A stretch of 64,000 nucleotides of DNA from the human T2T-CHM13v2.0 reference genome, Homo sapiens. The translations under genes were made by a program, and so were the position numbers. Below the pieces are notes generated by a model. It had not been told where the DNA came from and made no database searches. It worked only from the letters and a program-made list of their open reading frames with translations. The DNA lies in assembly GCF_009914755.1 (NCBI RefSeq), contig NC_060928.1. The stretch is one strand, 5' to 3'. Of this stretch, positions 1,238-50,410 are shown piece by piece (the first letter of the stretch is position 1; the number at the start of each line of letters is the position of its first letter).

Positions 1238-2200
<963 letters not shown>

Positions 2201-15914: not shown

Positions 15915-18420
15915 AATTTTATTGAGGTATGCTTGATGAGTACAAATCACTTATATTTAAGATGCACAACTTGCTGTTTTGATCTGTGCATATATTATGA
16001 AATGATTACTGCAACCGAACTAACATATCTATCACCATATCTAGTTATTTTTGCGTGATTGTGTGGTCAGGATGCTTGAGTTCTACCTCTGTGCAAACTT
16101 TAAGTATAGAGTTATTACTAACTACAGTCATCATGCTGCACATTAGTTCTCTAGAACTAATTCACCTTATAACTGAAAGTCTGTACACCTTGACCAACAT
16201 TTCCACATTTCCTCTACCTCCCAACCCATGCTAACCATGGGTTTCTACCAGTTCAACATTTTTAGATTCCATATACAAGTATACAAGTGAAATTAGATAG
16301 TATTTGTCTTTCTGTGTCTGGCTTATTTTACTTAGCATAATGTCCTTTAGGTTCATACATGTTGTTGCAAAAGGCAACTTCCTTTTTAAGCTGAATCATA
16401 TCCTATTGTATATTATACCACATTTTCTGTATGCATTCATCCACTGATGGGCACTTACATTGTTTCCATATCTTGGGTATCGTGAGCAATGCTGCAGTGA
16501 ACATGGGAGTGCAGATACCTTTTCAAGATAGTAAGTTTATTTTCATTACATATATAGCCAGAAGTAGGATTGCTGGATCATATGGTAGTTCTACTTATTT
16601 TTTTTAAAGAAGCTTCATGCTGTTTTTCATAATGGCTGTACTAACATATATTCCCATTGACAGTGTGCAAAGGGTCTCTTTTCTCTACATCCTTGCCAAC
16701 ACTTGTTATTTTTTTGACTTTTTGGAAATAGCCATCCTAACAGGTATAAGGTGATGGCTCATTGTGGTTTTGATTTGCATTTTGCTGACAATTAATGGTG
16801 TTGAGCACCTTTTAATATACCTGTTGGCCATCTGTATGTTCTCCTTACAAGTGTCTGTTCAGGTCCTTTGCCATTTTTTATCCATTGGATTTATTTTTCT
16901 TTGTTAAGGTGCATGAGTTCCTTATATATTTTGAATATTATTCTCTTATTAGATATTTGGTTTGAAAACTTTTTTGCTTAGTCCATAGGTTGCTTTTTAA
17001 TGTTGTTGATTGTTTTCACTGCTGTGCAGAAATGTCTTTGTTGTTCCACTTTATTTTTGCTTTTGCTTCCTATGCTTTTGGTGTCATATCCAAAACTGAG
17101 ATCTCCAAGTCTAATGTTACGGAGCTTTTCCTCCATATTTTCTTTTAGCAGTTTTACAGTTTTAGGTCTTACGTTTAAGTCTGTAATCAATTATGTGTTA
17201 ATGTTGTTTACAGTATAAGATAAGGGTTCAATTTCATTCTTTGGTACTTGAAAGTTGGTTTTCCTAACTCCATTTATTGAAGAGACTACCTTCTTTCATT
17301 GTGTATTCTTGGCACCATATTAGTTGAACTTACATGTGTGGGTTTATTTACGGATTCTCTGGTTGCACTGTTCTATGCTCCTGTATTTATGCCAGTACCA
17401 TAATGTCTTAATTACTAGATCTTTATAATATAATTGGAAACCAGGAAGTGTGATACCTCCAGTTTTCTTCTTCTTGCTCAACATTGTTTTAGCTATCTGG
17501 AATCTTTTGTGGTGTCATATAAATTATAGGATTTTTTTATATTGTCAAAAATGTCATTGGAATTGTGATGGGTGTTGAATTGAATCTGCAAATTGCTTTG
17601 GGTAGTATGGACATTTTACAATATTAATTTTTTCCAAACCATTAAAATGGGATGGCTCTTTATTTGTTTGTGTCATCTTCAATTTCTTTCATCAGTATTT
17701 TATAGCTTTCACTATCAGATCTTTCATCTCCTAGGTTGAATTTATTCAGAAATATTTTATTTTTTTAATCTTACTGTAAATCAAATTTTTTAAAGTTGCT
17801 TTTCAGATAGTTAATTGTCAGTGTGGAGAAATGTAACTGATTCTGTGTGTTGATATTATATTCTTCAAATTTACTGAATTTGTTTATGAGTTCTAACAGT
17901 TTTTTGAGGGGTAAAGTCTAGGATTTTTTATATAATATTGTTATCTGCCAACAGAGACAGTTCTATTTCTAACTTTTTAGTTTGGATGCCTTTAATTTAT
18001 TTCTCTTGTTTAAGCACTCTGGTTATGACTTCCAGGTTATGGTGAATAGAGTGGGTATCCTTGACTTTTTCCTGACCGTATAGGAGTGACGTTGATATTT
18101 TTACCATTGAGTTTGATGTTAGCTGTGAGCTTGTCTTATATAGACAGCCTTTATTATGTTGAGGTAATTTCCTTTTAATACAAGTGTGTTGAGAATTTTT
18201 ATCATGAAAGGGTTTTGAATTTTGTCAACTGATTTTTCTGCATCTATTGGTATGATCATGTTGATATTTGTCTTTATTCTGTTAATGTGACATATCACAT
18301 TTATTGATTTCCATAAGTTGAAACATACTTTCATCCCAGGGATACATTTCACCCTATAATGATGTATAATCTTTTTAATGAACTATTGAATTCAGTTTGC
18401 TAGTATTTTGTACAGAATTT
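15915..18420 (-). mobile_element. 5'-truncated L1MA (MA8-10-like): 3'UTR plus 3' half of ORF2
   Basis: Antisense 3' end TTTTATTGAGGTAT…CATTAGTTCTCTAGAACTAATTCACCTTATAACTGAAAG; ORFs give DLNVRPKTVKLLKEN and [17 protein letters not shown]…IDAEK. Confidence 0.92.
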
Positions 18421-18599
18421 TATCCAACCACATATGAGATTAACAATATTGTTATTTTTTGGTCCAACTGAGGCATTTAATTCTGAGTTAAGCCACTGTG
18501 TATCAAAGTTTTTTAAACCAAAAAATGAATAGACTCTGAAGTACTTGCCAGGATGTTTAAAGCTAGTACACACAGATAATTATCATGCTAATAAAATTG

Positions 18600-20060: not shown

Positions 20061-21209
20061 AAAATAGGAGGAAAAATCTCCACTAAATAAAACATATTTT
20101 CATAGTAGAATAATACACTAGGCTACACTTTAAGCAGTTTCAAATAAAGGAAATAAAATGTCGTAGCACAGGAACTGAGCATATTGAAACTAGTCTAAAA
20201 TTTAAGATACTACTTTACATTAGTTCCTATGAGTGTGGCACAATACTCTGGTTATTTTCTCCACTTGTGTGATTCTTGAAGTTGTAAGCAGTTTTTCAAT
20301 ATTGCTAATTACTAATGTTATTATTTCAGTAATTGTATTTTATTTATTAGGTTCTGTTACTAGTTAACATGAAAATGTTTTCCTTTTTATTGGCATTTTG
20401 GCAGCTTACTTTAGTAGGACTACTCATCATGACAAAAGCATAAATGTCAGCTCTGCAGCTCTCTGCTACAGTTTGCTTCAACAAGAATGTCAGAAGTGAC
20501 AAGGCAGAAAGTGATTCTGAGTGATGACATTCTTGTTGGTAATAGATTGGCTCCCGTGTATGCTGCTTCAGCTTTGATCTCTGAAACCTTTCATTTCTTA
20601 AAAAAAAATTTGAGATGTCTACTAGCCTGTGGAAATTTCAATTTTCTACCAAACATTGTCAGAATTATCTTTAAATGATTTAAATGTCAAGCTCACTCTA
20701 TTTGTTGGATCGTTTTGCAATAAAAGACCAGAGATTAACTACCATCTATACAATTGAGAACCACTGTCATCATTTATTTCTAAATATATTTTGGGGTGTG
20801 TAAATAGTAAGTATTCATGAGTAGTATGGTATTTTGAACTAAAATGTCACGAAGAAAGGAGATAAACATTTCCTGAATATGCCACAGATTTTTTTATACA
20901 TCGTAGTCTTAGATTTCTTGTTCATGTGAGAACACTCAGCACTACCTATTTGCAAAGAAACCTGTATTCATTGGTTTTCGTCATGAACTTTAAAAGAAAG
21001 TAAAGACTGCCACTTACGGCATAAAGATATCTCTTTGTCTGTTCTCTCAACATATTCTTTATTTAATTTAATCAAATAAATAATTTTAAAAAAACAACAA
21101 TATTAACTAACTCTTTCAAATTCTAATATTAAAGCCAATCTCTGTAATCTATAATGCTGAAAATATTTTCATGTATCCTGAAAATAAAAAATTACTTAAG
21201 AATAAAAAA

Positions 21210-21498
21210 GGTTGGGCACGGTGGTTCACGCCTGTAATCCCAGCACTTTGGGAGGCTGAGGCGGGCGGATCACGAGGTCAGGAGATCAAGACCATCCTAG
21301 CTAACATGGTGAAACCCTGTCTCTACTAAAAATGCAAAAAAATTAGCCAGGCGTGGTGGCGGGCGCCTGTAGTCCCAGCTACTCCGGAGGCTGAGGCAGG
21401 AGAATGGCGTGAAACCGGGAGGCAGAGCAGTGAGCCAAGATCGTGCCACTGCACTCCAGCCTGGGCAACGGAGCGAGATTCCGTCTCAAAAAAAAAAA
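21210..21498 (+). mobile_element. AluY with chimeric 5' end (left inversion breakpoint)
   Basis: AluY diagnostics GATCACGAGGTCAGGAGATCAAGACCATCCTAGCTAAC and GAGAATGGCGTGAA; flanks do not form a TSD (5' AAGAATAAAAAA vs 3' ATTCTTCAA). Confidence 0.95.
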
Positions 21499-21507
21499 AT
21501 TCTTCAA

Positions 21508-21806
21508 GACCGGGAGCGGTGGCTTACGCCTGCAATCCCAGCACTTTGGGAGGCTGAGGCAAGTGGATCAAGAGGTCAGTAGTGCAAGACCAGCCTGACC
21601 AACATGGTGAAACCCCGTCTCTACCAAAAATACAAAAATTAGCCAGGCGTAGTGGCACGCACCTGTTATCCCAGCTACTCAGGAGGCTGAGGCAGAAGAA
21701 TCACTTGAAACTGGGAGGCGGAAGTTGCAGTGAGCCGAGGTCGCACCACTGCACTCCAGCATGGGTGACAGAGCGAGACTCTGTCTCAAAAAAAAAAAGA
21801 AAAAAA
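21508..21806 (+). mobile_element. AluS (Sg-like) in tandem with the AluY, inserted at the 3' end of L1 ORF1
   Basis: GATCAAGAGGTCAG-type 2-nt deletion with GACCAGCCTGACCAACATGG; flanked by CTTCAA on both sides. Confidence 0.92.
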
Positions 21807-24800
21807 GACTTCAAGAATGAAGGAGAAATGAAGAACATGCCAGACAAACAAAAGCTGAGGAATTTCATCAACACCAGACCTGTCCTACATGAAATGCTAA
21901 AGGGAGTTCTTCAATCTGAAAAAAGAGAATGTTACCGAGCAAAAAAAATCATCTAGATGTACAGAACTCACGGGTAATCGTAAGCATACTGGAAAAATAC
22001 AGAATATAATAACATTGTAATTGCGGTTTATAAAATGTTCTTAAGTAGAAAGACTAGGTGATGAATCAATCAAATGCAATAACTAAAACAACTTTCTAGG
22101 ACATAGTAGAATAAGACATAAAGAGAAAGAACAGAAAGTTAAAAATCAGCAGGATGAAGTTAAAGTGTAGATTTTTTATTAGTTTTCTTTTTGCATGTTT
22201 GTTTATGCAATGTGTTAAGTTATCCTCAGTTTAAACTAATGGGTTATAAGATAGATGGTATTTGCAAGCCTCATGGTAATATCAAATTGAAAAACATACA
22301 ATAGAAACAGAAAAAATAAAAAGGAAGAAATTACATTGTACTACCAGAGAAAATCACCTTCACTAAAAAGAAGACAGGAAGGAAAAAATGAAGAAAAGAC
22401 CACAACACAACCAAGAAACAAATAACAAAACAGCAGTAGTAAGTCCCTACTTATCAGTAAGAGCATTGGATGTACATGGACTAAACTCACTAATAAAAAC
22501 ACATAGAGTGTCTGAATGGATGAAAAAAAACTAGTTTTAATTATCTGCTGCCTACAAGAAACACACTTCACTTATTAAGATACACATGGACTGAAAATAG
22601 AATAATGAAAAAAGATAGTTTGCAGGGACATGGATGGAGCTGGAAGCCATTATTCTCAGCAAACTAACACAGGAAGAGAAAACCATGTTCCCACTTATAA
22701 GTGGGAGTTGAACAGTAAGAACACATGGACACAGAAAGGGTAACAACACACACTGGGGCCTGTTGGGGGCAGAAGGGGGAGGGAGAGCGTCAGGATAAAT
22801 AGCTAAAGCATGTGGGGCTTAGTATCTAGGCGATGGGCTGATAGGTGCAGGTAACCACCATGGCACATGTTTACCTGTATAACAAACCTGCATGTCCTGC
22901 ACATGTATCCCAGAACTTAAAATAAAATTAAAAATTAAAAAAAGTAATATTATCTTGAAATATATAACATTAAAAAATATAAATCATGAAGATAAAAGTG
23001 GCAAGGAAAGAGAAAGTAACGAAAAAAAAAAGATATTTTATGCCAATGGAAACCAAAAAGAACAGGCATAGATTTCATGCCGGACTAAATTGGTTTCAAG
23101 ACAAAAATTGTAAGAAGAGACAAAGACAATCATTTATTCATTTATAATGGTAAAGGGGTCAATTCAGCAAGAGTATATAATGATTTTAAATATGTATGTG
23201 CTCAACACTGGAGAACCAGATATACAAAGTAAACATTAGAGGTAAAGAAATAGACCTCAATGCAATAATAGCTACAGACTTCAACACCCCACTTTCAGCA
23301 TTGAAAAAATTTCCCACACAGAAAATCCAGAAAGAAACATGAGACTTAATATGCAATATAGATCAAATGGAAATAATAGATATTTTCAGAATATTTTATT
23401 CAATGGCTACAGAATACACATTCTTCTCCTCAGCACATGGATCATGTTCAAGGATATATTAGGTAACAAAACAAGTCTTAAAAGATTCAAAAATTGAAGT
23501 AATATGAAGCATGTTCTCTGACCACAAAGAAATAAAACTAGAAATTAATAACAAGAGGAATTTGGAAAACTACAAACACATGGAAATCCAACAATATGCT
23601 CCAGAATGACCAGTGGATCAATGAATAAATCAAGAAGGAAATTGAAAAATATCTTGAAACAAATGATAATGGATAAACAACATACCAAAACCTATAGGAC
23701 ACAGCAAAAGCAATACTAAGAAGGAAACCTATAGCTGAAAGTGCCTATGTCAGAAACGAAGAATTTTAAATAAATACTCTAACAATGCATCTTAAAGAAT
23801 TAGAAAAGCAAGAGCAATCCAAACTCAAAATTAGTAGAAGAAAATAAAAAATAAATATCAGAGCAGGATTAAATGAATTTGAAATGAAGAAAAAAATACA
23901 AAAGATCTATTAAACAAAAAGTTGTCTTTTTTTTGAAAAGATAAATAAAATTTCCAAACCTTTTGCCAGACTAATGAAGAAAAAAAAGACAGACGAACCC
24001 AAAATAAACAAAATCAGGGATGAAAAGCAGACATTACAACTGACATTCAGTTGTAATGTTTTTGAACAGAAATTCAAAGGATCAGTTATGTCTACTATGA
24101 GCAACTATATGCCAATAACTTGGAAAATCTAGAAGAAATGGATAAATTCATAGACACATACAATCCACCAAGATCAAATTATGAAAAAAAACAAAACCAG
24201 AAGTAATGAGATTGAAGCTGTAACAAAAATTCTCCCAGTAAAGAAAAGCCCAGAACCCAAAGATTTCACTGCTGAATTATACTAAACATTCAAACAACTA
24301 ATAACAACCCTGCTCAAACTGTTCCAAAAAAAAATAGAGGAAGAGGGAATCCTTTCAAACTCATTCTACAAGGCCAGTATTACCCTGATACAAAAACCAG
24401 GCAAAGACACATCAAAAAAAGAAAACTACAAGCCAATATCTCTGATGACTATTGATGTAAAAATCCTCAGCAGAATACTAGAAACTGAATTTGGCAATAC
24501 ATTAAAAAGATCATTCATTATGACTAAGTGAGATTTATCACAGGGCTGTAAGGGTGGTTCAATATATGTAAATCAATCAATGTGATACACCATATCAATA
24601 GAATGGAGGACAAAAATCATGATCATTTTGATTGATGCTGAAAAAGCATTAGATAAAATTCAACATCCCTTCATGATAAAAACCCTCAAAACACTGGGTA
24701 TAGAGGGAACATACCTCAACATAATATAAGCCATGTATGACAGACCCACAGCTATTATCATACTGAATAGGGAAAAACTGAAAACCTTGCCACTAAGATC

Positions 24801-26205
24801 TGGAACATGACAAGGATGTCCACTGTCACCACTGTTATTTACATAATGCTGGAAGTCCGAGCTAGAGCAATCAGACAAGAGGAAGAAATAAAGGGCATCC
24901 AAATTGGAAAGGAGGAAGTCAAATTATTCTTATTTGCAGATGATATGATCTTATATTTGGAAAAGCCTAAGACTCCAAAAAACTATTAGAACTGATAAAC
25001 AATTTCAGTAAAGTTACAGAATATGAAATCAACTTACAAAAATCAGTAGCATTTCTATATGCCATCAGTGAACAATCTGAAAAAGAAATAAAAATATAAT
25101 TGCATTTACAATAACCACACATAAAATTAAATATCTAGATATTGACTTAACCAAGAATTGAAAGATCTTTACAGAGAAAACCATGAAATGCTGTTGAAAA
25201 AAATTGAAGAGGACACAGAAATTGGAAAGATAATCCATGTTCATGGGTTGAAAGGATCAGTATGGTTAAGATGTCCTTACAACCTAAAGCAATCTACAGC
25301 TTCAATGAAATTCCTATCAAACTTCCAATGACATTCCTCACAGGAATTAAAAAAAAAAAAACTATCCTAAAATTCATACGGAACTACACAAGACCCAGAA
25401 TAGCCAAAGTTATTTTGAACAAAATTAACAAAACTGGAGAAATCACATCACTTGACTTCAAAACTGCAGAGCTAGAATAACCAAAAAAAAAGCATGGCAC
25501 TGGCATAAAAACGGACACAGACCCAAAAGAAAGGAAATAAGTATAGTGAAGAGTTATCTGTACTCCTATGTTTGTTGCAGCACTGCTCATAATAGCCAAG
25601 CTTTGGAAGTAACCTCAGTGTCCATCAACATATAAATGCATTAAAAAATGTGGTACCTATACACAATGGAGTACTATTCAGACATAAGAAAAAAATAAAA
25701 TCCTGTCATGTGCAACAACATGGGTAGAACTAGAGGTCATTATATTAAGTGAAATAAGCCAAGTATAGAAAGACAAATATAGTATGTTCTCACTTACTTG
25801 TGGGATCTAAAAATCAAAACAATTGATTTCACATAGGTAGAGAGTACAAACAGTTATCAGAGACTGGGAAGAGTATTGAGAGTCAGAGGTGGTGGGGGGA
25901 GGTGGAGATAGTTAATGGGTATAAAAATAAATAAAATTTGATAGCACAACAGGGCGACCATAGTCAATAATAATTAATAATTTAATTGTACATTTAACAA
26001 TAACCAATAGAGTATAATTTGCTTGTTTGTAACACAGAGAAAAAATGCTTGAGGGAATAGACATCCCATTTTCCATGTTGTGATTATTACACATTGCATA
26101 CTTATATCAAAATATCTCATGTTCTTGATAAATATATACACCTAGCATATTATTTAATCAACTGAGTCATTACATTACATCCACAAAAATTAAACATTAA
26201 AAAAA
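21807..26205 (+). mobile_element. 3' part of an L1MA2-type element (end of ORF1, inter-ORF, decayed ORF2, 3'UTR)
   Basis: ORF1 end [37 protein letters not shown]; RT motif [14 protein letters not shown] (about 24930); 3'UTR GATAGCACAACAGGGCGACCATAGTCAATAATAA; internal deletion near 25520. Confidence 0.93.
22618..22943 (+). mobile_element. 5'-truncated L1PA (about PA11-13) 3' end nested in L1MA2 ORF2
   Basis: TTTGCAGGGACATGGATGGAGCTGGAAGCCATTATTCTCAGCAAACTAACACAGG…CACATGTATCCCAGAACTTAAAATAAAA; TSD AAAAAAGATA at 22608-22617 and 23026-23035. Confidence 0.9.
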
Positions 26206-29040
26206 ATTAGTGATATGGGCACAAGCACTTTTAGGTAGCTTTTTAAATTAGGAGTAATGATAGGAAATGTCACCATTGAGATGGGGTTTTCTTTTTTCAA
26301 CAGGAATGATGGCATACTGGAGTGGCAGAGATCAGGTAACTGTGTTAAATAGCAGAAGCAACATAGGTGAAATTATTATTACTTGGTGGCATGGATGAAA
26401 TGTTAAACATTGACACTAAGTGATCTGTAGTTGCTAGTTGTCCATAGCACCTTTAAATGTGAAATAGGTGGTAGTCTAATAAAACATTATCTTAAAATAA
26501 TACTTTATTTATTGAAGAATTGGACTGGTGCATAGATGCTTGATATGAATTGCTCTCATAGGAAGTCATGGCCACTAAACTATTTCCTACATTAAACCAA
26601 TAAACCAACCCACATCCACATAAGGAAGAACTTCCACATCTCCATGTGTAAATGCTGTAAATTTTCTGCAAGCCTTCTGCAAGGGGACCTGGAGACATAC
26701 ACCATGGTGACTACTCCAGTGACCAAGAATTATCAGGAATAAATAACTCCACATAGATTCTAAGCCCTGAGTATAGAGAATATTGTGTTTGTTTTATTAG
26801 TCGGAGTAAATGTTGGTAGAGTCTAAATGATAAATAAAGTTTTGACCCATGTAATAGAGATTCTCAGGATGGGACGATGAGACTGCAGTATTTGCGCAGA
26901 TCTAATTATGCACAGATCTAATGTTTTTGTGCCAGACACTTGCAGAATCCCTGCATTTGGCTCCTGGACAGCTATGATATATTATGGTAAAAAAAGGAAG
27001 AGTTAAGTAAAAGACCCTCAGAATTTTCCTTTAACTATTCCTAAAAAAAAAAAGTAAATTATAATCAATACTTCATTCATTCCCAGAGGAATTGAATAAA
27101 TTAGTGGTAATATATAAGATATGAGTAATACAAGCATTTCCATTTAACTGACATTTTTGGCTGGTGCAAATGCCACATGGATTTTGCTATTTCAAATTTA
27201 AGCAGGTAATGACTAAATCCAGCTACTGTTTTACATGTTGTTCTTTAACTAGATTAACTCAATCCCTAGTGAGTGCTGGCAATTATATATTTCTCCAAAA
27301 CAATGAACAGGGATGAAGAGATGCAATTTACTTTCATCAGGTAGGAACAAAGGTAAACCTACCCTTTCTCTCCCCAGGACTGTGTCAGCTCTCATAGTCT
27401 CTATAGTAAACTAGTTGTAATGGAATAAATCATCTAAATATTCTACTGAATATCATGCTGTTCCATTACTGATAACACCAAATGATGGGATCTGGTGAGC
27501 AGAAGTAGCTACTAATCAGATACCCTAGTAAAATACTTGCTTGCTAATTGTAAGAGATAAACCTACTGAGAATTCTAGGTCCTAACACAAAACTAAAGTT
27601 TCTAGAGGCCCAACAATTTTAAACAGGTTGGGAAATTCCCTCTATAGTGAGAGACACTGCACTAACACACACTAAAATAAAGAAGCAAAATTAATTTTGG
27701 GCCTTTTCAGGTTTTAGAGGCAAAATAAACCAAATTGGGTTACCTGTTCTGACCCATTACCAATTAACTCATGAAGCTGCAAATTTTTGAATAGAGCTCA
27801 GAGCAAAATTAGTCTCTGTAGCAGGTTCAGACTAAAGTGAAAGTTTCCTGCAAACTGGGCATCATTAACCAGTAGATAAAATGGTGCTCATAGTGCCATT
27901 CATAAATAAGTGATGTTTGATGGATTCCTCTGGTTAAGCCCACTACAATAATCAGAGTGCAGATTGTGAAGAAGATTTTGCAACAATGTAATGCCCTCCT
28001 CTAGTGACAAGTACAGGTATGTGTTGCTTAATGACAGAGATATGTTCTGATAAATATGTCACCTGGCAATTTCCTCATGCGAACCTTATAAAGTATACTT
28101 ACATTATCTAGATGGTATAGCCTACTACACACTTAGGCTATATGGTACAGCTTATTGCTTCTAGGCTACAAACCTGCACAGCATGTTACTGTAGTGAATC
28201 CTGTAGGCAATTGTAACACAGTAAGTACTTGTATATCTAAACATATCTAAACACATAAAAGGAGTACTAAAATTGCAGGATTATAATCTTATGGGTCCAC
28301 TATCTTATATGCGGTCTGTTGCTGAGCAAAACATTGTCATGAAGCACTTGACTATGTTCTCTTTTTGAAGAGCAATATCTGTCTTTCTACTGAGACTTTA
28401 CAGAGGGGTTATGACCGAACTTGTACCCCATGACTATGATAGGTGAACTGACATCTTGAATGAGTGAAATTTGATAAACTGAGCCATTACAATTGATTTA
28501 CAGCTTTCCTTTTCTGCTACAAATTTAGAACAGGAAAAAATATATTTGGAAAATGTAACATTCTGTGGGATGTCTCTTACTACTTTCCTCACCAAGTTTA
28601 ATGAAGGCATACAAAAGCCAAATAAATCCAGGATCACTGAGTACTCAGATTCTTCAAAATGAAAGTTTGGATCACCTCACCAGGTAAAGAAACCTGATTA
28701 GATGCTGGCTGTGTGCAAGGTGATAGAAGAAAACCCAATAAATGCTAACCACAGCCTCAGAGTCAGCACAGATATGAGAACTATAGCAGCTAGGTATACT
28801 TTTGTTACTTGTATGTTAACTAGCATTTTATTTTTGCTCTTTCTCTCCCTTGACGTAGTATGCTAAGCTATACAATTTAGATCTGATGGAGGAAAAGTGG
28901 AGTTTGAACGACATATTGGTTTGGATATGATAAATGACTAAGTAGAGTTTGGATTTACTCTTCTTGGAGAAAAGATGACATCATTTGTAAATGATAGGTA
29001 TTTGCCTAAAGTTAAGCATAAAAGGCTAAACAAAGATTTG
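26206..29040 (+). mobile_element. ERVL-class internal relic (gag end, pro, RT/RNaseH, 3' internal end), interrupted by Tigger3a
   Basis: Degenerate matches to ERVL: TGGAGTGGCAGAGATCAGGTAAC (gag), CAATTTACTTTCATC and CTGTTCCATTACTGATAACA (RT), TTTTGAAGAGCAATATCTG (RNaseH), AATGAAAGTTTGGATCACCTCACCAGGTAAAGAA (3' end). Confidence 0.75.
28014..28354 (-). mobile_element. Tigger3a/MER7A non-autonomous DNA transposon
   Basis: CAGGTATGTGTTGCTTAATGACAG…CTAGATGGTATAGCCTACTACACAC…ATTATAATCTTATGGGTCCAC…CACTTGACT. Confidence 0.88.
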
Positions 29041-29422
29041 TATAACATAGTCACAATTCCTGAACCTCACCTCATTTTTGAGTGTCACTCCTTAGTGTGT
29101 GAGGTTATTTGACTATGGGAGTAGTATCTGTTTGTTATCTGTTGATTATTAACAGTAAGTTTCTTGGTGACACAAACTCTGTCTTGTTCACTATTAGAGG
29201 TATCTCAGTGCAATTCTACATGATTTTAGATTTTAAATCTCATTTCTCTTGTTGGTAGGCTGTTGACGTAAAGATCCTCTTCATATATTATAGTCCATTT
29301 ATTGTAAATATTTTTAGTTTTATCTTTCTAAATTATACATATTCTGGATTTCTCATAAACATAATGAATATATAGGTTTGTCAAAACCTGTAACATATAA
29401 TAAAACCTAGCTACCAACATTT

Positions 29423-29458
29423 TGCTGGGATTACAGGCGTGAACCACCGCGCCTGGCC
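29423..29458 (-). mobile_element. 36-nt Alu 5' head only (right inversion breakpoint)
   Basis: Reverse complement GGCCAGGCGCGGTGGTTCACGCCTGTAATCCCAGCA, then abrupt switch to non-Alu sequence. Confidence 0.93.
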
Positions 29459-32256
29459 TTGAAGAATATTTTTACTGAATATACTATACTAGGGTAGAGT
29501 ATTTTTTTTCCCTCAGCACTTTATGTATGTCATGTCACTCTCTCTTGACCTGTAGGGTTTTCATTGAAAAGTCTGCTGTCAGATTTATTAGCGCTCCATT
29601 GTATGTTATTTGTTTCTTTTCTCTTGCTGCTTTTATCCTTTCTTCATCCTTGACTTTTGGGTGTTTGATTATCAAATGCCTTGAGGTAATCTTATTTGGG
29701 TTAATTCTGCTTTGTGTTCTATAATCTTCTTGTATTTGAATGTTGATATCTTACTCTAGGTTTGGGAAGTTCTCTGTTATTATCCCTTTGAATAAACTTT
29801 CCACCCCTATTTTTTTTTCTCGACCTCCCCTTTAAGGCAAGTAACTATTGGATTTGTTCTTTTGAAGCTATTTTTTAGATCTTGTAGTCATGCTTCATAG
29901 TTTTTCGCTGCTTTTTTTTTATAATTTTATCTCCTCTGACTGTGTATTTTCAGGTAGCCTGTCTTCAAGCTCACTAATTCTTCCTTCTGTTTGATCAATT
30001 CTGCTATTAAGGGACTCTGATGCATTCTTCAGTATGTCAGTTAGTTACGTTTTTAGCTCCAGAATTTCTGCTTGAGTCTTTTTAATTATTTCTATCTCTT
30101 TGTTAAATTTATCTGATAGAATTCTGAATTTCCTCTCTGTGTTTTCTTGAATTTGAGTTTCCTCAAAACAGCTATTTTGAATTAGCTGTCTGAAAGGTCA
30201 TATATCTGTTTCTCCAGAATTGTTCCCTGGTGCCAGTTTATTTAGTGAGGTCATGTTTTTCTTGATGATCTTGATGCTTGTAGATGTTCATCAGTGTCTA
30301 GGTCTTGAAGAGTAAGGTATTTATCATAGTCTTCACAGTCTGGACATGTTTTTTTTTTTTTTTTTTTCCCTTCTTGATAAGGCTTTCCAGGTAATCAAAG
30401 GGACTTGGGCCCGCACGCTCCAAAATGCTATGGTTTTTGCAGACTTGCAGAGATACCACCTTGGTGGTTTTGAACAATATCCAGAAGAATTCTCTCAATT
30501 ACCAGGCAGAGACTCATGTTCTTTTCCCTTACTTTCTCCCAAACAAATGGAATCTCTCTGTCTGTGCTGAGCCACTTGGAACTAGGGGTGCGGTGATGCC
30601 AGCACCCCTGTGGCCACCACCACTGGAACTGCACTGGGTTTTGCCCAAGGCCCATTATAGTCACTACCTGGTTACCACCTACGTTCACTCAAGGCCCTAC
30701 GGCTCTACAACCAGCAAGTGGTGAAGTCAACCAGCTTTGTGTTCTTCCCTTAAGGACAGCAAGTTTCCTCACTCCCTGGGAGGGTCTAGGGGTACTATTT
30801 GGGAACCAGGAATTGGAGTCAAAAACCTTAGAATTTATCTGGTGTTCTAAGTGGCTAACCTGGTACTTGGCCCACAATACAAAGTCCTTCCCATTCTTCC
30901 CTCCCCTTTCCACAGGAAGAGGCACCTCTCCCTATGACCACCACCACCAGCAGCCAATGGAGGACTGTGCCAGGACACTTCCAATGTTCACTTAAAGCCT
31001 AAGGGCCCTTTCACCAGCTTGTAGTATATGCTGCTAGACCTGGGACTCACTCTTCAGGGTAGTAGACTCTCCTCTGGCCCAGGAAAGATCTAGAAATGCG
31101 GGACTCAGGGACCCCCTAGAGCCTTCTTGTTGCTTTTCTCCACTGTGGCCAAGCTGATATCTAAGGTGCAAGACAAGGTCCCCTTTACTTTTCTCTCTGT
31201 TTTTCTCAAACACAAGAAGTCTCTCCCTGTAGCCACCATTGCTGGGAATGTGCTGGATCACATGTGAAGCCAGCATATCTCAGAGCCCAAGGCCCATAGC
31301 ATACTACCTAGGTACTACTTCTGTTTATTTAGAGCCCAAGGATTCTTTAGTCGGCAGGTGATGAATACTGCCAGGACTGGGTCCTTCCCTTCAAGGCAGC
31401 AGGATCTCTTGTGGCCCAGGGTTGATCTAGAACTATCTGTGAGTTAGGGCCTAGAATGGTGGCCTCATGACTCTGCCTGGTGCTCTATCCTACTGTGGTT
31501 GAGCTGTTATTCAACATGCAAGACGAAGTCATTTTTACTCTTTGTTCTTCTTCCCTTAAGCAGAAGGAAGGAGTCACTTTTATTTCTGTGAGATGCACTG
31601 CCTGGGTTTGGGGGACAGGAGGTGCAAGCACTCCATTAACCACCATGGCTGGTATCTGCCTAGATCATGTTCCACCCTAGTCCACTGGCTCTTAGCCTAG
31701 CCCAGCACTAATTGCTTTCCAGGAATTTCAGTCCTTGCGTCCTGGACTGCCTTTCAAGTTTACTGAGGACCCCAGAGTACTTTGGCCTGTGGTGGCATGT
31801 CTTGTTGAGAAACTCAAGTTCTAACTGCTAGGATGGGCGATTTCCCTCTGACTAGGTCTGGTCTAATGCTCCCTCCATGTGTGTACTGGCTGAGTCCAGC
31901 GTGGCTGTGCTCTGCACTGCAACAAGGCAGCACTGAGTTCAACGTAAAGTCCCCCAGTCTCTGTGCTCTGCCTCTCTAAGTGCACAGATTCTCTCTCCAC
32001 GTAGCACAGACACTGACAGGGGAAAAAGAAGACATGGCATCAGCAATTCAAGACTATCTCTCCTCCACTCTTCAATAACTCCTTTAGTGATATGAAGTTA
32101 AAACTGAATACTGTGATTGCTTACCTAATTTTTGGTTCTTGTGATGATGCTTTTCAGTGTGTATATAGCTGTTAGCATTTGGTGTTTCTGTGGGCATTGG
32201 GGGTGGAGGGAACAAACTGTGTAGGCTTCTTTTTTGTCATTTTGCTCCTTCCCCTT
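29459..32256 (-). mobile_element. 5' part (5'UTR plus most of ORF1) of the same L1MA2-type element
   Basis: Minus strand starts GGGGAAGGAGCAAAATGAC (L1 5' terminus-like), runs through a GC-richer 5'UTR and A-rich ORF1, and stops at CTAGTATAGTATATTCAGTAAAAATATTCTTCAA, exactly where the + strand piece at 21807 resumes. Confidence 0.9.
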
Positions 32257-32730
32257 CTAATATGTATTTTTTGCAATGTTTTGTAGGAAGGAGTATCCTC
32301 TGGCCCTTTCTGTGAACACCTATGGGTGAAAGGCAAATTAGTTTTACATAATAAATTGAATACACTAATTGCATCTCCATATTTTTTTCTCTATATTAGA
32401 CTGAGTTCTGGCCTCTTACATCATTTAATGTAAATTGCACTCTTAAATCCTGACTTCATTTATTGAACCAGGCAAAGTGTTAAAGTTACTTCCATCTGCC
32501 TGAGCTAGTACATTACATTGCTAAATATAATTAACTGCCTTTGTATAGATAATTTTACTCAAATTCAGCCTCATCCTCCAGCCTATCTCTCCTAAAGTAT
32601 ATTCCCTCACAAACTCACACCGTTTTTGCTATTAAGACTTAGCAATTTCTTCCTGGACAAGACTGTATATAATTCTCCTCTAGGAATCAGACTTATTTTA
32701 CAGGCTCGGAGGTCATAAAGATGAGTGATT
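32257..32730 (-). mobile_element. ERVL-class gag relic, upstream partner of the 26206 piece
   Basis: Minus strand reads …TAATGTACTAGCTCAGGCAGATGGAAGTAACTTTAACACTTTGCCTGGTT…GGGCCAGAGGATACTCCTTCC…AAATACATATTAG, similar to ERVL gag. Confidence 0.7.
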
Positions 32731-49480: not shown

Positions 49481-50215
49481 TGGAATAAACAATCTAGCAA
49501 TAGTAAAACTTTGGAAAGTAAAACTTTCATCAAGTGTTTGTAATGTACAGTTTTTATCTATATTTTATAATCACAATGTATAATATGTAGATATTATAAT
49601 GTCATATATAACACATGGAAACCCTAAAGTAGAAACTTTATAAGTACCTTTACTTCTTTCAATGCAATTTCTAGATGAAACATAAAACTTTGATCAATTT
49701 TATTGTGACAAATAATTTTGAATAACAGCACCATGTGCCAGAAATAAGCTTACAAATGATTTAAATATGCAATATACATATTTTTCTTTTTTCACTATGA
49801 ACTCTACATTCTGCTTTTTCTCACAAGACTTCTAAAGATAATCATTATTCAAAATATGTATTAATTACAATTTTAAGTATAAAATATTCTATTTGAAATT
49901 ACCAACCTAACATAATACAACTGAAAATTGATACATATTGTTAAAGGTCAAAGTACATTTAGTTTACAATAATTTCGTTGACATGCATAATCCATAATCT
50001 GAAAAAAGATAATAGGCTATTATAACTCTTCTTTAATGAAGCTACTAAAGCAAAGAGAGTTTTATGTTCGAACTCTTCAAACATGCATCACTCATAAGCA
50101 TATGCCTTTTCCCAGATGTGCAATTCATGCTGAAGAGCAGTTCTTGGAATGCTTTTGCAATAAGGTCCTTCAACTTCACAAAGAATCATTCAAATAAATA
50201 CTCTGGGATTATTTT

Positions 50216-50410
50216 ATTTATTTTTTTTAATTATACTTTAAGTTCTAGGGTACATGTGCACAATGTGCAGGTTTGTTACATATGTATACATATGCCATGT
50301 TGGTGTGCTGCACCCATTAACTCGTCATTTACATTAGGTATATCTCCTAATGCTATCCCTTCTCCCTCCCCCCACCCCACTACAGGCCCCAGTGTTTGAT
50401 GTTCCCCACA
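50216..50410 (-). mobile_element. Short young L1PA (about PA4) 3' end with 14-bp TSD
   Basis: TTATACTTTAAGTTCTAGGGTACATGTGCACAATGTGCAGG…TTTACATTAGGTATATCTCCTAATGC; TSD TCTGGGATTATTTT at 50202-50215 and 50411-50424. Confidence 0.95.

What the first reader, a model, noticed from the sequence alone, without database searches (positions are those of the whole stretch)
21210..29458. Cryptic ~8.2-kb inversion that splits one AluY and one full-length L1MA2 into opposite-strand halves
Seen in the sequence: the L1 5'UTR+ORF1 lies on the minus strand (32256 to 29459). It stops at …AAAAATATTCTTCAA and is followed by only the first 36 nt of an Alu (29458 to 29423). The rest lies on the plus strand: AluY body, tail, then ATTCTTCAA (21499-21507), an AluSg-like element, then CTTCAAGAATGAAGGAG, the next bases of L1 ORF1. 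The two copies of the AluY target-site duplication are therefore 8 kb apart on opposite strands. Established: retrotransposon TSDs are direct repeats immediately flanking the insert. Inference: flipping about 21246-29422 restores a contiguous AluY with its TSD inside a contiguous L1. The inversion is younger than the AluY, so it may be lineage-specific or still polymorphic.
Basis: partly seen in the sequence, partly recalled or inferred. Interest (0 to 1): 0.8.

Follow-up and report, generated by a model that had tools for sequence, protein, structure and literature searches.

The report
Old 8-kb inversion tied to Alu insertion
An 8.2-kb piece of a human chromosome 4 gene desert really is flipped, splitting an old L1 element and a younger Alu; the first 36 bases of that Alu sit at both ends of the flipped piece, which suggests the flip may have happened while the Alu was inserting.

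Summary
The L1 5' part (minus strand, about 32257 to 29459) and the L1 remainder (plus strand, 21809 to about 26206) abut exactly in reference L1 copies from the same genome, sharing only the 6-nt CTTCAA of the target-site duplications. Pfam places neighbouring parts of L1 ORF1p on opposite strands, and the reading frame runs across the join. Flipping 21246-29422 in silico makes every long L1 match colinear on one strand.

The plus-strand Alu at 21210-21498 is complete, so Alu bases 1-36 occur twice: 21210-21245 (+) and 29423-29458 (-). This is a 36-38-nt inverted duplication bounding the inverted segment. The two copies differ at 4 of 36 sites, three of them CpG decays. They share a rare T at Alu position 16. 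So the event is millions of years old, about as old as the Alu, and not a recent polymorphism.

Because the duplication starts at Alu base 1, I favour (about 0.5) an inversion made during AluY integration, a known but sparsely documented class. The main rival (about 0.38) is a later two-break inversion with a staggered cut. Recombination between inverted Alus and twin priming fail their defining tests. No outgroup or pangenome data could be reached. Interest is modest: intergenic, no gene affected.

The parts
21183..21209 (+). Left outer flank X. It is A/T-rich and ends ...CTTAAGAATAAAAAA. This is the presumed distal breakpoint side, unique in the genome.
   Evidence: sequence; 20700-21209 matches only itself in the genome; resembles the Alu target site in inverted orientation (score 15; 26 of 2000 shuffles reach it).
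21210..21245 (+). Copy 'a' of Alu nt 1-36, the left arm of the inverted duplication. It is continuous with the rest of the Alu.
   Evidence: I2 arms 21208-21245 and 29423-29460.
21246..21499 (+). AluY-like body (Alu nt 37 to end) and A12 tail (21488-21499).
   Evidence: 90-93% identity to the listed full-length Alu matches among the 40 candidates scored; 16 events in 246 nt against the majority of the 20 nearest copies.
21500..21507 (+). TTCTTCAA: L1-derived target-site duplication copy after the AluY tail, now on the opposite strand from its partner at 29459-29473.
   Evidence: I1.
21508..21808 (+). Second, older AluS-like element with an interrupted A tail, inserted at the same L1 site.
   Evidence: 83.8% to the AluY; alignment of its 5' end.
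21809..26206 (+). L1 remainder: end of ORF1 (C-terminal dsRBD-like domain positions 37-64), ORF2, 3' UTR and A8 tail. It carries a nested ~330-nt repeat at about 22619-22950.
26207..29422 (+). Segment F: former 3' flank of the L1, carried along in the inversion. Its last 523 nt are unique in the genome. It ends ...CAACATTT(T).
29423..29458 (-). Copy a' of Alu nt 1-36, the right arm of the inverted duplication. It is joined at nt 1 to the L1 target site and at nt 36 to non-Alu DNA.
29459..29473 (-). AAAAATATTCTTCAA: target-site copy at the Alu 5' junction. On the complementary strand TTTTT|AC fits an L1 endonuclease nick site.
   Evidence: The endonuclease preference (TTTT/AA) is recalled knowledge.
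29459..32257 (-). L1 5' UTR and most of ORF1 (RRM-like domain to its end, plus the first part of the C-terminal domain).

Best explanation
This is a real, ancient and probably fixed inversion of about 8.2 kb, not an assembly artefact or a coincidence of two L1s.

Original state: one full-length L1MA-type element lay on the minus strand. An AluS-like element, and later an AluY-like element, inserted at the same endonuclease site in ORF1 (target AAAAATATTCTTCAA).

What is inverted: the AluY body and tail, the target-site copy, the older Alu, the L1 remainder and 3.2 kb of former 3' flank. The segment is bounded by a 36-38-nt inverted duplication of the AluY 5' end.

Favoured mechanism (inferred): the inversion was made during AluY target-primed reverse transcription.
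1. After both strands were nicked, the upstream end (...TTCAA-3'OH) began second-strand synthesis on the Alu cDNA and copied 36 nt.
2. The two ends then came apart.
3. The end carrying the full cDNA was resected or folded back over about 8 kb and rejoined in reverse, with the cDNA 3' end (Alu base 1) joined to flank X.
4. The upstream end, carrying its 36-nt Alu stub, was joined to the freed end F by end joining (1-nt microhomology).

This explains why both Alu copies begin exactly at Alu base 1 and why the target-site duplication survives in inverted orientation.

Shown: the anatomy, L1 and Alu contiguity, the duplication, and its age. Inferred: the order of steps and the coupling to insertion.
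For: Inversion real:
- 5 of 7 reference L1 copies show an exact 6-nt overlap of the two halves.
- All 7 references align gap-free across the join.
- Adjacent ORF1p domain segments lie on opposite strands and the frame is continuous.
- After the in-silico flip, all HSPs of 400 nt or more are colinear on one strand against L009, L010 and L011.

Duplication:
- 21210-21245 against 29423-29458, 32 of 36 identical.
- Both copies carry T at Alu position 16. It is found in 0 of 23 other Alu 5' ends in 177 kb of window plus unselected loci, and in 3 of 20 similarity-selected copies.

Age:
- 4 changes in 72 nt since duplication (5.6% per copy).
- The Alu body shows 16 events in 246 nt (6.5%) against the majority of its 20 nearest copies.
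- No CpG decay is shared by the two copies.

Coupling to insertion:
- The duplication edge falls at Alu base 1, within 2 nt (I2).
- The target-site copy is retained, and TTTTT|AC lies at the first-strand nick.
- The distal break lies in an A/T run.
- The distal site resembles the target site in the inverted orientation needed for fold-back annealing: score 15, reached by 26 of 2000 shuffles and 6 of 681 AT-matched window 50-mers (post hoc).

Precedent:
- L1 insertions with local genomic inversion on the primary-RT or reciprocal end, with the target-site duplication kept and kb-scale size (bioRxiv 10.1101/2024.12.14.628481; passages read).
- 5 Alu- and 1 L1-insertion-mediated germline inversions in 20 genomes (PMC8219666; passages read).
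Against: - No outgroup or pangenome sequence was available, so the ancestral adjacency of X and F, and the absence of an 'AluY present, not inverted' state, are untested.
- The clock comparison only mildly prefers simultaneity (a Bayes factor of roughly 2 by my own Poisson reckoning). It rests on 4 substitutions.
- The shared T16 could be a mutation that arose after insertion and before inversion, which would favour the rival.
- There is no microhomology at the X|Alu junction beyond a possible AA.
- The 8-kb fold-back is inferred, not seen.
- The homeology test was made after noticing the pattern (p about 0.01, uncorrected).
- The L1's own target-site duplication, which should also be inverted, is too decayed to score.
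Confidence: 0.5

Rival explanations
1. Post-insertion inversion. The AluY inserted normally. Later, two double-strand breaks occurred, one of them staggered by about 36 nt inside the Alu 5' end, or there were two replicative template switches (FoSTeS/MMBIR type). Fill-in and non-homologous end joining followed. The segment was flipped and the staggered stretch was left at both ends as an inverted duplication.
For: - Inverted duplications at inversion breakpoints are the expected product of staggered breaks (established model, recalled).
- The junctions show 0-2 nt of microhomology.
- The shared derived T16 is easily explained if time passed between insertion and inversion.
- The divergence data allow an inversion any time in roughly the first three quarters of the Alu's life (my reckoning).
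Against: - It needs a coincidence: one edge of the duplicated stretch falls on Alu base 1, within 2 nt.
- No CpG decay is shared by the two copies, although the Alu body has 9 CpG-site changes among its 16 events. This argues for little elapsed time before duplication.
Confidence: 0.38
2. Insertion-coupled inversion with a 51-nt target-site duplication. The 36-nt stub at 29423-29458 is not AluY but a copy of the older Alu's 5' end, duplicated together with AAAAATATTCTTCAA because the second-strand nick fell 51 nt downstream.
For: the repeat finder I1: 21493-21543 and 29423-29473, 51 nt, 86% complementary. This needs no extra duplication step. 7 of 51 differences fit twice the Alu's per-site divergence.
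Against: - The stub differs from the older Alu at 6 of 36 sites, five of which are not CpG transitions, and shares none of that Alu's four private changes.
- It differs from the AluY copy at only 4 of 36 sites (3 CpG) and shares its rare T16.
- Target-site duplications of 51 nt are uncommon (recalled).
Confidence: 0.05
3. Non-allelic homologous recombination between the AluY and an inverted Alu at 21210 (retrotransposon recombination-mediated inversion).
For: Alu sequence is present at both breakpoints in inverted orientation. This class is well documented between human and chimpanzee (PMC2603318; passages read).
Against: - The right-hand Alu piece stops at nt 36 and is followed by unique non-Alu DNA. 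Recombination between two Alus should leave two full chimeric Alus.
- Homology is only 36-38 nt.
Confidence: 0.03
4. Assembly error in the reference, or two unrelated L1 fragments lying close together by chance.
For: None found. No read-level data were available to exclude misassembly directly.
Against: - The base-exact abutment of the L1 halves with the shared target-site copy, frame continuity and the matching Alu pieces argue against two unrelated fragments.
- The two 36-nt arms have diverged at 4 sites, which an assembly flip of one sequence would not produce.
Confidence: 0.02

Closest known systems
TE-insertion-mediated inversion, also called L1-induced local inversion at TPRT double-strand-break ends (bioRxiv 10.1101/2024.12.14.628481; xTea paper PMC8219666)
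   Same: - A polyadenylated retroelement lies at one inversion junction.
- An endonuclease-type target and a target-site duplication are retained across the two junctions.
- A kb-scale stretch of adjacent genomic DNA is inverted together with the insertion ('primary RT end' type).
- Non-homologous junctions.
   Different: - This case is old, germline and present in the reference genome rather than somatic or polymorphic.
- The inserted element is an Alu.
- A 36-nt sense-oriented stub of the same Alu sits at the other junction, a feature I did not see in the passages I read.
- Coupling is inferred, not demonstrated.
Inversions with inverted duplications at the breakpoints from staggered breaks (model recalled from Drosophila and human inversion literature)
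   Same: A short inverted duplication bounds the inverted segment. There is no long homology at the breakpoints.
   Different: The duplicated stretch here begins exactly at a retroelement's first base and adjoins its target-site duplication.
Retrotransposon recombination-mediated inversion (Alu-Alu or L1-L1; PMC2603318)
   Same: Alu sequence at both breakpoints in inverted orientation. The size range is similar.
   Different: One 'Alu' is only 36 nt. There are no two chimeric full elements. The two pieces derive from one element (shared T16).
Twin priming (5'-inverted L1 or Alu insertions)
   Same: Two pieces of one retroelement in opposite orientation associated with one target site.
   Different: The pieces are separated by 7.9 kb of genomic DNA that is itself inverted. 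The short piece is in sense orientation relative to its adjoining target-site copy, the opposite of what twin priming on the reciprocal end predicts.

Membership tests
Simple chromosomal inversion splitting pre-existing repeats | The two halves of a split element have contiguous, non-overlapping element coordinates and opposite strands | tested here: met
   The halves abut with only the 6-nt target-site copy shared. Colinear after the flip against 3 references.
Simple chromosomal inversion splitting pre-existing repeats | Both halves belong to one element (same family, similar divergence, continuous reading frame) | tested here: met
   Identity to the same reference copies is 73-80%. ORF1 domains and frame are continuous.
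Simple chromosomal inversion splitting pre-existing repeats | The uninverted arrangement exists in an outgroup or other haplotype | not testable with these tools
   No primate or pangenome sequence is held. The supplements searched gave nothing usable.
TE-insertion-mediated (TPRT-coupled) inversion | Poly(A) end of the insert joined to a target with an L1 endonuclease-type nick site | tested here: met
   An A12 tail is followed by TTCTTCAA. The complementary strand reads TTTTT|AC at the edge of the 15-nt target.
TE-insertion-mediated (TPRT-coupled) inversion | Target-site duplication preserved but distributed over the two inversion junctions | tested here: met
   The copies lie at 29459-29473 (-) and 21493-21507 (+).
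TE-insertion-mediated (TPRT-coupled) inversion | The 5' end of the insert (cDNA 3' end) joined directly to distal genomic DNA | tested here: met
   Alu base 1 at 21210 abuts the unique flank X.
TE-insertion-mediated (TPRT-coupled) inversion | Insertion and inversion always co-occur (no insert-only allele) | not testable with these tools
   Needs orthologous loci. Only indirect clock evidence is available.
Retrotransposon recombination-mediated inversion (NAHR between inverted Alus) | Two substantial inverted homologous elements at the breakpoints, left as chimeric full elements | tested here: not met
   The right arm is 36-38 nt only, followed by unique DNA.
Twin priming | An inverted 5' segment directly adjoining the 3' segment inside one insertion flanked by direct target-site duplications | tested here: not met
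   There are 7.9 kb of genomic DNA between the pieces. The short piece is sense-oriented relative to its target-site copy. The target-site copies are inverted, not direct.
L1 ORF1p (Pfam Transposase_22 / Tnp_22_dsRBD) | Matches above the Pfam gathering score | tested here: met
   41.7 bits (cut-off 22.4) and 31.2 bits (cut-off 22.2).

The most novel reading that the evidence does not exclude
The locus is a fixed germline 'fossil' of a derailed Alu integration. Second-strand synthesis had already started from the upstream target end (36 nt copied) when the two endonuclease-made ends separated. The cDNA-bearing end was then flipped with 8 kb of flanking DNA. If so, reference genomes hold datable, sequence-resolved intermediates of target-primed reverse transcription, and a share of small evolutionary inversions in primates were made by Alu or L1 integration itself rather than by later breakage or recombination.
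Probability: 0.45. Interest if true: 0.5.

Novelty: new member of a known kind. Interest (0 to 1): 0.35.

Why it matters
The region is a gene desert and no gene or annotated element is disrupted, so functional impact is probably nil. The value is mechanistic.

The breakpoints are resolved to the base. They show an inverted duplication that begins at the first base of a retroelement, next to its target-site duplication. That signature can be searched genome-wide to ask how many small primate inversions were by-products of Alu or L1 integration. This class has so far been described mainly in tumours, induced cell clones and a handful of polymorphic human variants.

The case also shows that split repeats with inverted target-site copies are a reliable way to detect old inversions from a single genome.

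Tried and rejected
1. NAHR between inverted Alus: rejected. One arm is only 36-38 nt and is followed by unique DNA.
2. Twin priming: rejected on geometry.
3. 51-nt target-site-duplication model (stub derived from the older Alu): considered after repeat finder I1. Disfavoured by the substitution pattern and the shared T16.
4. The L1's own target-site duplication as an independent test of inversion: inconclusive. Only a weak A-rich ...TTAG resemblance exists between the 5' flank (minus strand) and the 3' flank (plus strand).
5. Testing whether X and F were once contiguous through a shared older repeat: both flanks match only themselves in the genome, so no test was possible.
6. Catalogue look-ups.
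   - Supplementary table file of PMC12350158, searched for T2T and approximate GRCh38 coordinates. The only chr4 hits were two Alu rows: a deletion at chr4:16,433,199, unrelated to the locus, and a 340-bp Alu insertion at chr4:160,997,046 (GRCh38). That insertion lies inside my estimated GRCh38 range for the window, and I did not check it against the locus. The word 'inversion' had 0 occurrences. The file was cut when stored, so this is not evidence of absence.
   - Supplements of PMC12058530 and PMC10028934 were unreadable or absent.
8. Pfam on long six-frame stretches failed because of stop codons. Redone with stop-free segments. 3 of the 5 segments gave no L1 family hit: 2 had no family at all and 1 had only weak, sub-threshold unrelated hits.
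9. Subfamily naming (L1MA2, AluY, AluSg) could not be verified, because no Dfam or RepeatMasker library is available. The names rest on recalled diagnostic motifs.
Full report
**What is in the sequence**

On the plus strand:
- A complete Alu starts at 21210 (GGTTGGGCACGG...). Its body runs to 21487 and an A12 tail follows at 21488-21499.
- Next comes TTCTTCAA (21500-21507).
- Then a second Alu with an interrupted A tail (21508-21808).
- From 21809 the sequence reads CTTCAAGAATGAAGGAG...

On the minus strand:
- L1 sequence ends ...AAAAATATTCTTCAA at 29459.
- It is followed by Alu bases 1-36 (29458 down to 29423).
- Then comes DNA with no Alu similarity. In one search, only 29423-29453 of that neighbourhood matches an Alu.

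**The L1 halves are one element**

I used the window's own genome as a source of intact reference copies. I queried it with the last 442 nt of the minus-strand piece. Of the 40 candidates scored, 39 were non-self matches at 81-85% identity. Seven were kept with flanks (L002-L008).

- In 5 of 7 references, the minus-strand piece ends exactly 6 nt after the position where the plus-strand piece begins. The coordinate pairs are 1928/1923, 1937/1932, 1501/1506, 1945/1940 and 1501/1506.
- In the other 2 of 7, the local alignment of the plus-strand piece begins 15 or 36 nt in, at roughly colinear positions (3-8 nt off, indels).
- A multiple alignment shows all 7 references running without a gap through ...AAAATAT(T/C)CTTCAA|(A/G)(C/T)ATGAAGGAG... 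The two window pieces overlap by CTTCAA only.
- The ORF1 frame is continuous. The minus piece leaves two bases, the plus piece supplies one, and the translation reads ...[27 protein letters not shown]....
- Pfam places 29538-29750 (-) on Transposase_22 positions 39-98 of 98 (E 1.5e-10). It places 21816-21953 (+) on Tnp_22_dsRBD positions 37-64 of 65 (E 2.4e-7). The roughly 37 codons between these segments account for dsRBD positions 1-36. The other 3 of the 5 stop-free segments tested gave no L1 hit.
- I reverse-complemented 21246-29422 in a script. After that, every match of 400 nt or more to three longer reference loci (L009, L010, L011) lies on one strand and in monotonic order.

Other L1 details:
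- The 3' end is at about 26206 (...CCACAAAAATTAAACATTA8, as in reference 3' ends).
- The 5' end is at about 32257.
- The element is about 6.8 kb long. That length excludes the ~429-nt stretch at 22600-23028 absent from reference L009, which holds a nested ~330-nt repeat.
- Two independent L1 insertions cannot give a 3'-truncated copy abutting a 5'-truncated copy to the base. The inversion reading stands.

The plus-strand Alu is not the remainder of a cut Alu. It begins at Alu base 1. Bases 1-36 therefore occur twice, at 21210-21245 (+) and 29423-29458 (-).
- The two copies are 32 of 36 identical.
- The repeat finder extends the pair to 38 nt by an AA/TT at the outer edges (I2).
- The inverted segment is thus bounded by a short inverted duplication. 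The breakpoints cannot be a clean two-cut flip.

**Whose 36 nt are they?**

The repeat finder also pairs 29423-29473 with 21493-21543 (51 nt, 86%, I1). That second arm is the target-site copy plus the 5' end of the older Alu. This raised the possibility that the stub is part of a 51-nt target-site duplication.

The substitution pattern argues against it:
- The stub differs from the older Alu at 6 of 36 sites. Five of these are not CpG transitions. It shares none of that Alu's four private changes.
- It differs from the AluY copy at 4 of 36 sites. Three are CpG decays, and one CpG decayed independently on opposite strands.
- It shares the AluY copy's T at Alu position 16.

Among the Alu 5' ends matching a loose pattern in 177 kb of window plus unselected loci, 23 have C and only these two have T. 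Among the 20 copies selected for similarity to this Alu, 3 have T. I take the stub to be AluY-derived.

**Age**

Against the majority base of its 20 nearest genomic copies, the Alu body (nt 37 to end) shows 16 events in 246 nt, or 6.5%. Nine are at CpG sites. The panel was chosen by similarity, so this may be an underestimate.

Since duplication, the two 36-nt copies have accumulated 3 and 1 changes, or 5.6% per copy. They share no CpG decay. By my own Poisson reckoning:
- An inversion at the time of insertion fits best.
- One in the last quarter of the Alu's lifetime is about 8-fold less likely.
- One in the last tenth is more than 100-fold less likely.

With recalled substitution rates for Alu CpG and non-CpG sites, this puts the event on the order of 10-20 million years ago, with a very wide interval. 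A still-segregating human polymorphism is therefore unlikely.

**Mechanism**

Recombination between inverted Alus fails. The right arm is 36-38 nt and adjoins unique DNA, whereas that mechanism leaves two chimeric full Alus (PMC2603318; passages read).

Twin priming fails on geometry. 7.9 kb of inverted genomic DNA separates the pieces, and the stub is in sense orientation relative to its target-site copy.

Two readings remain.

(a) A later non-homologous inversion in which one break was staggered by about 36 nt.

(b) An inversion made during AluY integration.

I favour (b), at about 0.5 against 0.38, for four reasons:
- The duplicated stretch starts at Alu base 1, within 2 nt. In (b) this is automatic. 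The cDNA ends at the RNA 5' end, and second-strand synthesis from the upstream target end starts there. In (a) it is a coincidence.
- All hallmarks of target-primed reverse transcription are retained: an A tail, a 15-nt target copy, and TTTTT|AC at the first nick.
- The distal break lies in an A/T run. The distal site resembles the target site in the inverted orientation that fold-back annealing of a resected 3' tail needs. The score was 15, reached by 26 of 2000 shuffles and by 6 of 681 AT-matched 50-mers of the window. This test was made post hoc and is uncorrected.
- The class exists. L1 insertions with kb-scale inversion of adjacent DNA on the primary-RT or reciprocal end, with the target-site duplication preserved, are described in induced clones and tumours. 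They are explained there by remodelling of untethered endonuclease-made ends (bioRxiv 10.1101/2024.12.14.628481; passages read). In addition, 5 Alu- and 1 L1-insertion-mediated germline inversions were called in 20 long-read genomes (PMC8219666; passages read).

Against (b):
- The shared T16 could mark time elapsed between insertion and inversion.
- The clock evidence rests on four substitutions.
- No outgroup could be examined.

**What could not be done**

- No primate or pangenome sequence is held.
- The supplementary table file of PMC12350158 was cut when stored, and the part held has no occurrence of the word 'inversion'. Its only row in my estimated GRCh38 range was a 340-bp Alu insertion at chr4:160,997,046, which I did not check against the locus.
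- The supplements of PMC12058530 and PMC10028934 were unreadable or absent. These may bear on lineage specificity.
- Both outer flanks are unique in the genome, so their former adjacency cannot be tested internally.
- The L1's own target-site duplication is too decayed to use.
- Dfam and RepeatMasker were not available, so the subfamily names are unverified.

**Verdict**

The inversion is real and old. Its mechanism is most likely an Alu-integration-coupled inversion, which would make it a new (fixed, germline) member of a known kind. Interest is modest, because no gene is touched and both candidate mechanisms are already described.

Noticed in passing
window 21488-21814 and 29459-29473: Two Alus of different age appear to have used the same L1 endonuclease nick. 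The L1 target is AAAAATATTCTTCAA(GA). It recurs after the AluY tail (A12 then TTCTTCAA). It recurs again, degraded, after the older Alu's tail (AAAAAAAGACTTCAAGA, 14 of 17 by eye). CTTCAA is therefore present three times.
   Followed up: partly
window 21183-21209 joined with 29393-29422 (reverse complement), compared with the target site at 29459-29483 (-) and 21815-21839 (+): The presumed ancestral distal junction (TAAAAAATTACTTAAGAATAAAAAA|AAAATG) resembles the Alu target region of the L1 in inverted orientation. Both contain a near-palindrome, ATTCTT(C)AAGAAT. The local score is 15, reached by 26 of 2000 shuffles and 6 of 681 AT-matched window 50-mers. The test was made after noticing the pattern.
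   Followed up: partly
window 22619-22950: A ~330-nt high-copy repeat is nested inside the L1 ORF2 region. It matches many genomic copies at 84-87% (5503 first-look candidates) and is absent from reference L1 copies at that position. One frame reads ...GTWMELEAIILSKLTQEEKT..., which from memory looks like the C-terminal/3' part of a younger L1. It was not identified with a library.
   Followed up: partly
window 26145-26180: About 36 nt (GCATATTATTTAATCAACTGAGTCATTACATTACAT) lie between the conserved ...AAATATATACACCTA and the terminal CCACAAAAATTAAA... of the L1 3' end. They have no counterpart in the 9 reference 3' ends printed. The origin is unknown.
   Followed up: no
window 17449-18421 (-), 16258-16525 (-), 1262-1873 (-), 50208-50407 (-): Other L1 ORF2-region fragments in the window match 24460-25814 of the inverted L1 at 68-71%. 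They are separate, older insertions.
   Followed up: no
window 32258-32290 (-) and 26207-26225 (+): The L1's own target-site duplication should now be an inverted pair. Only a weak resemblance is left: ...AAAAAATACATATTA before the 5' end, against A8 then TTAGTGATATGG after the 3' end.
   Followed up: partly
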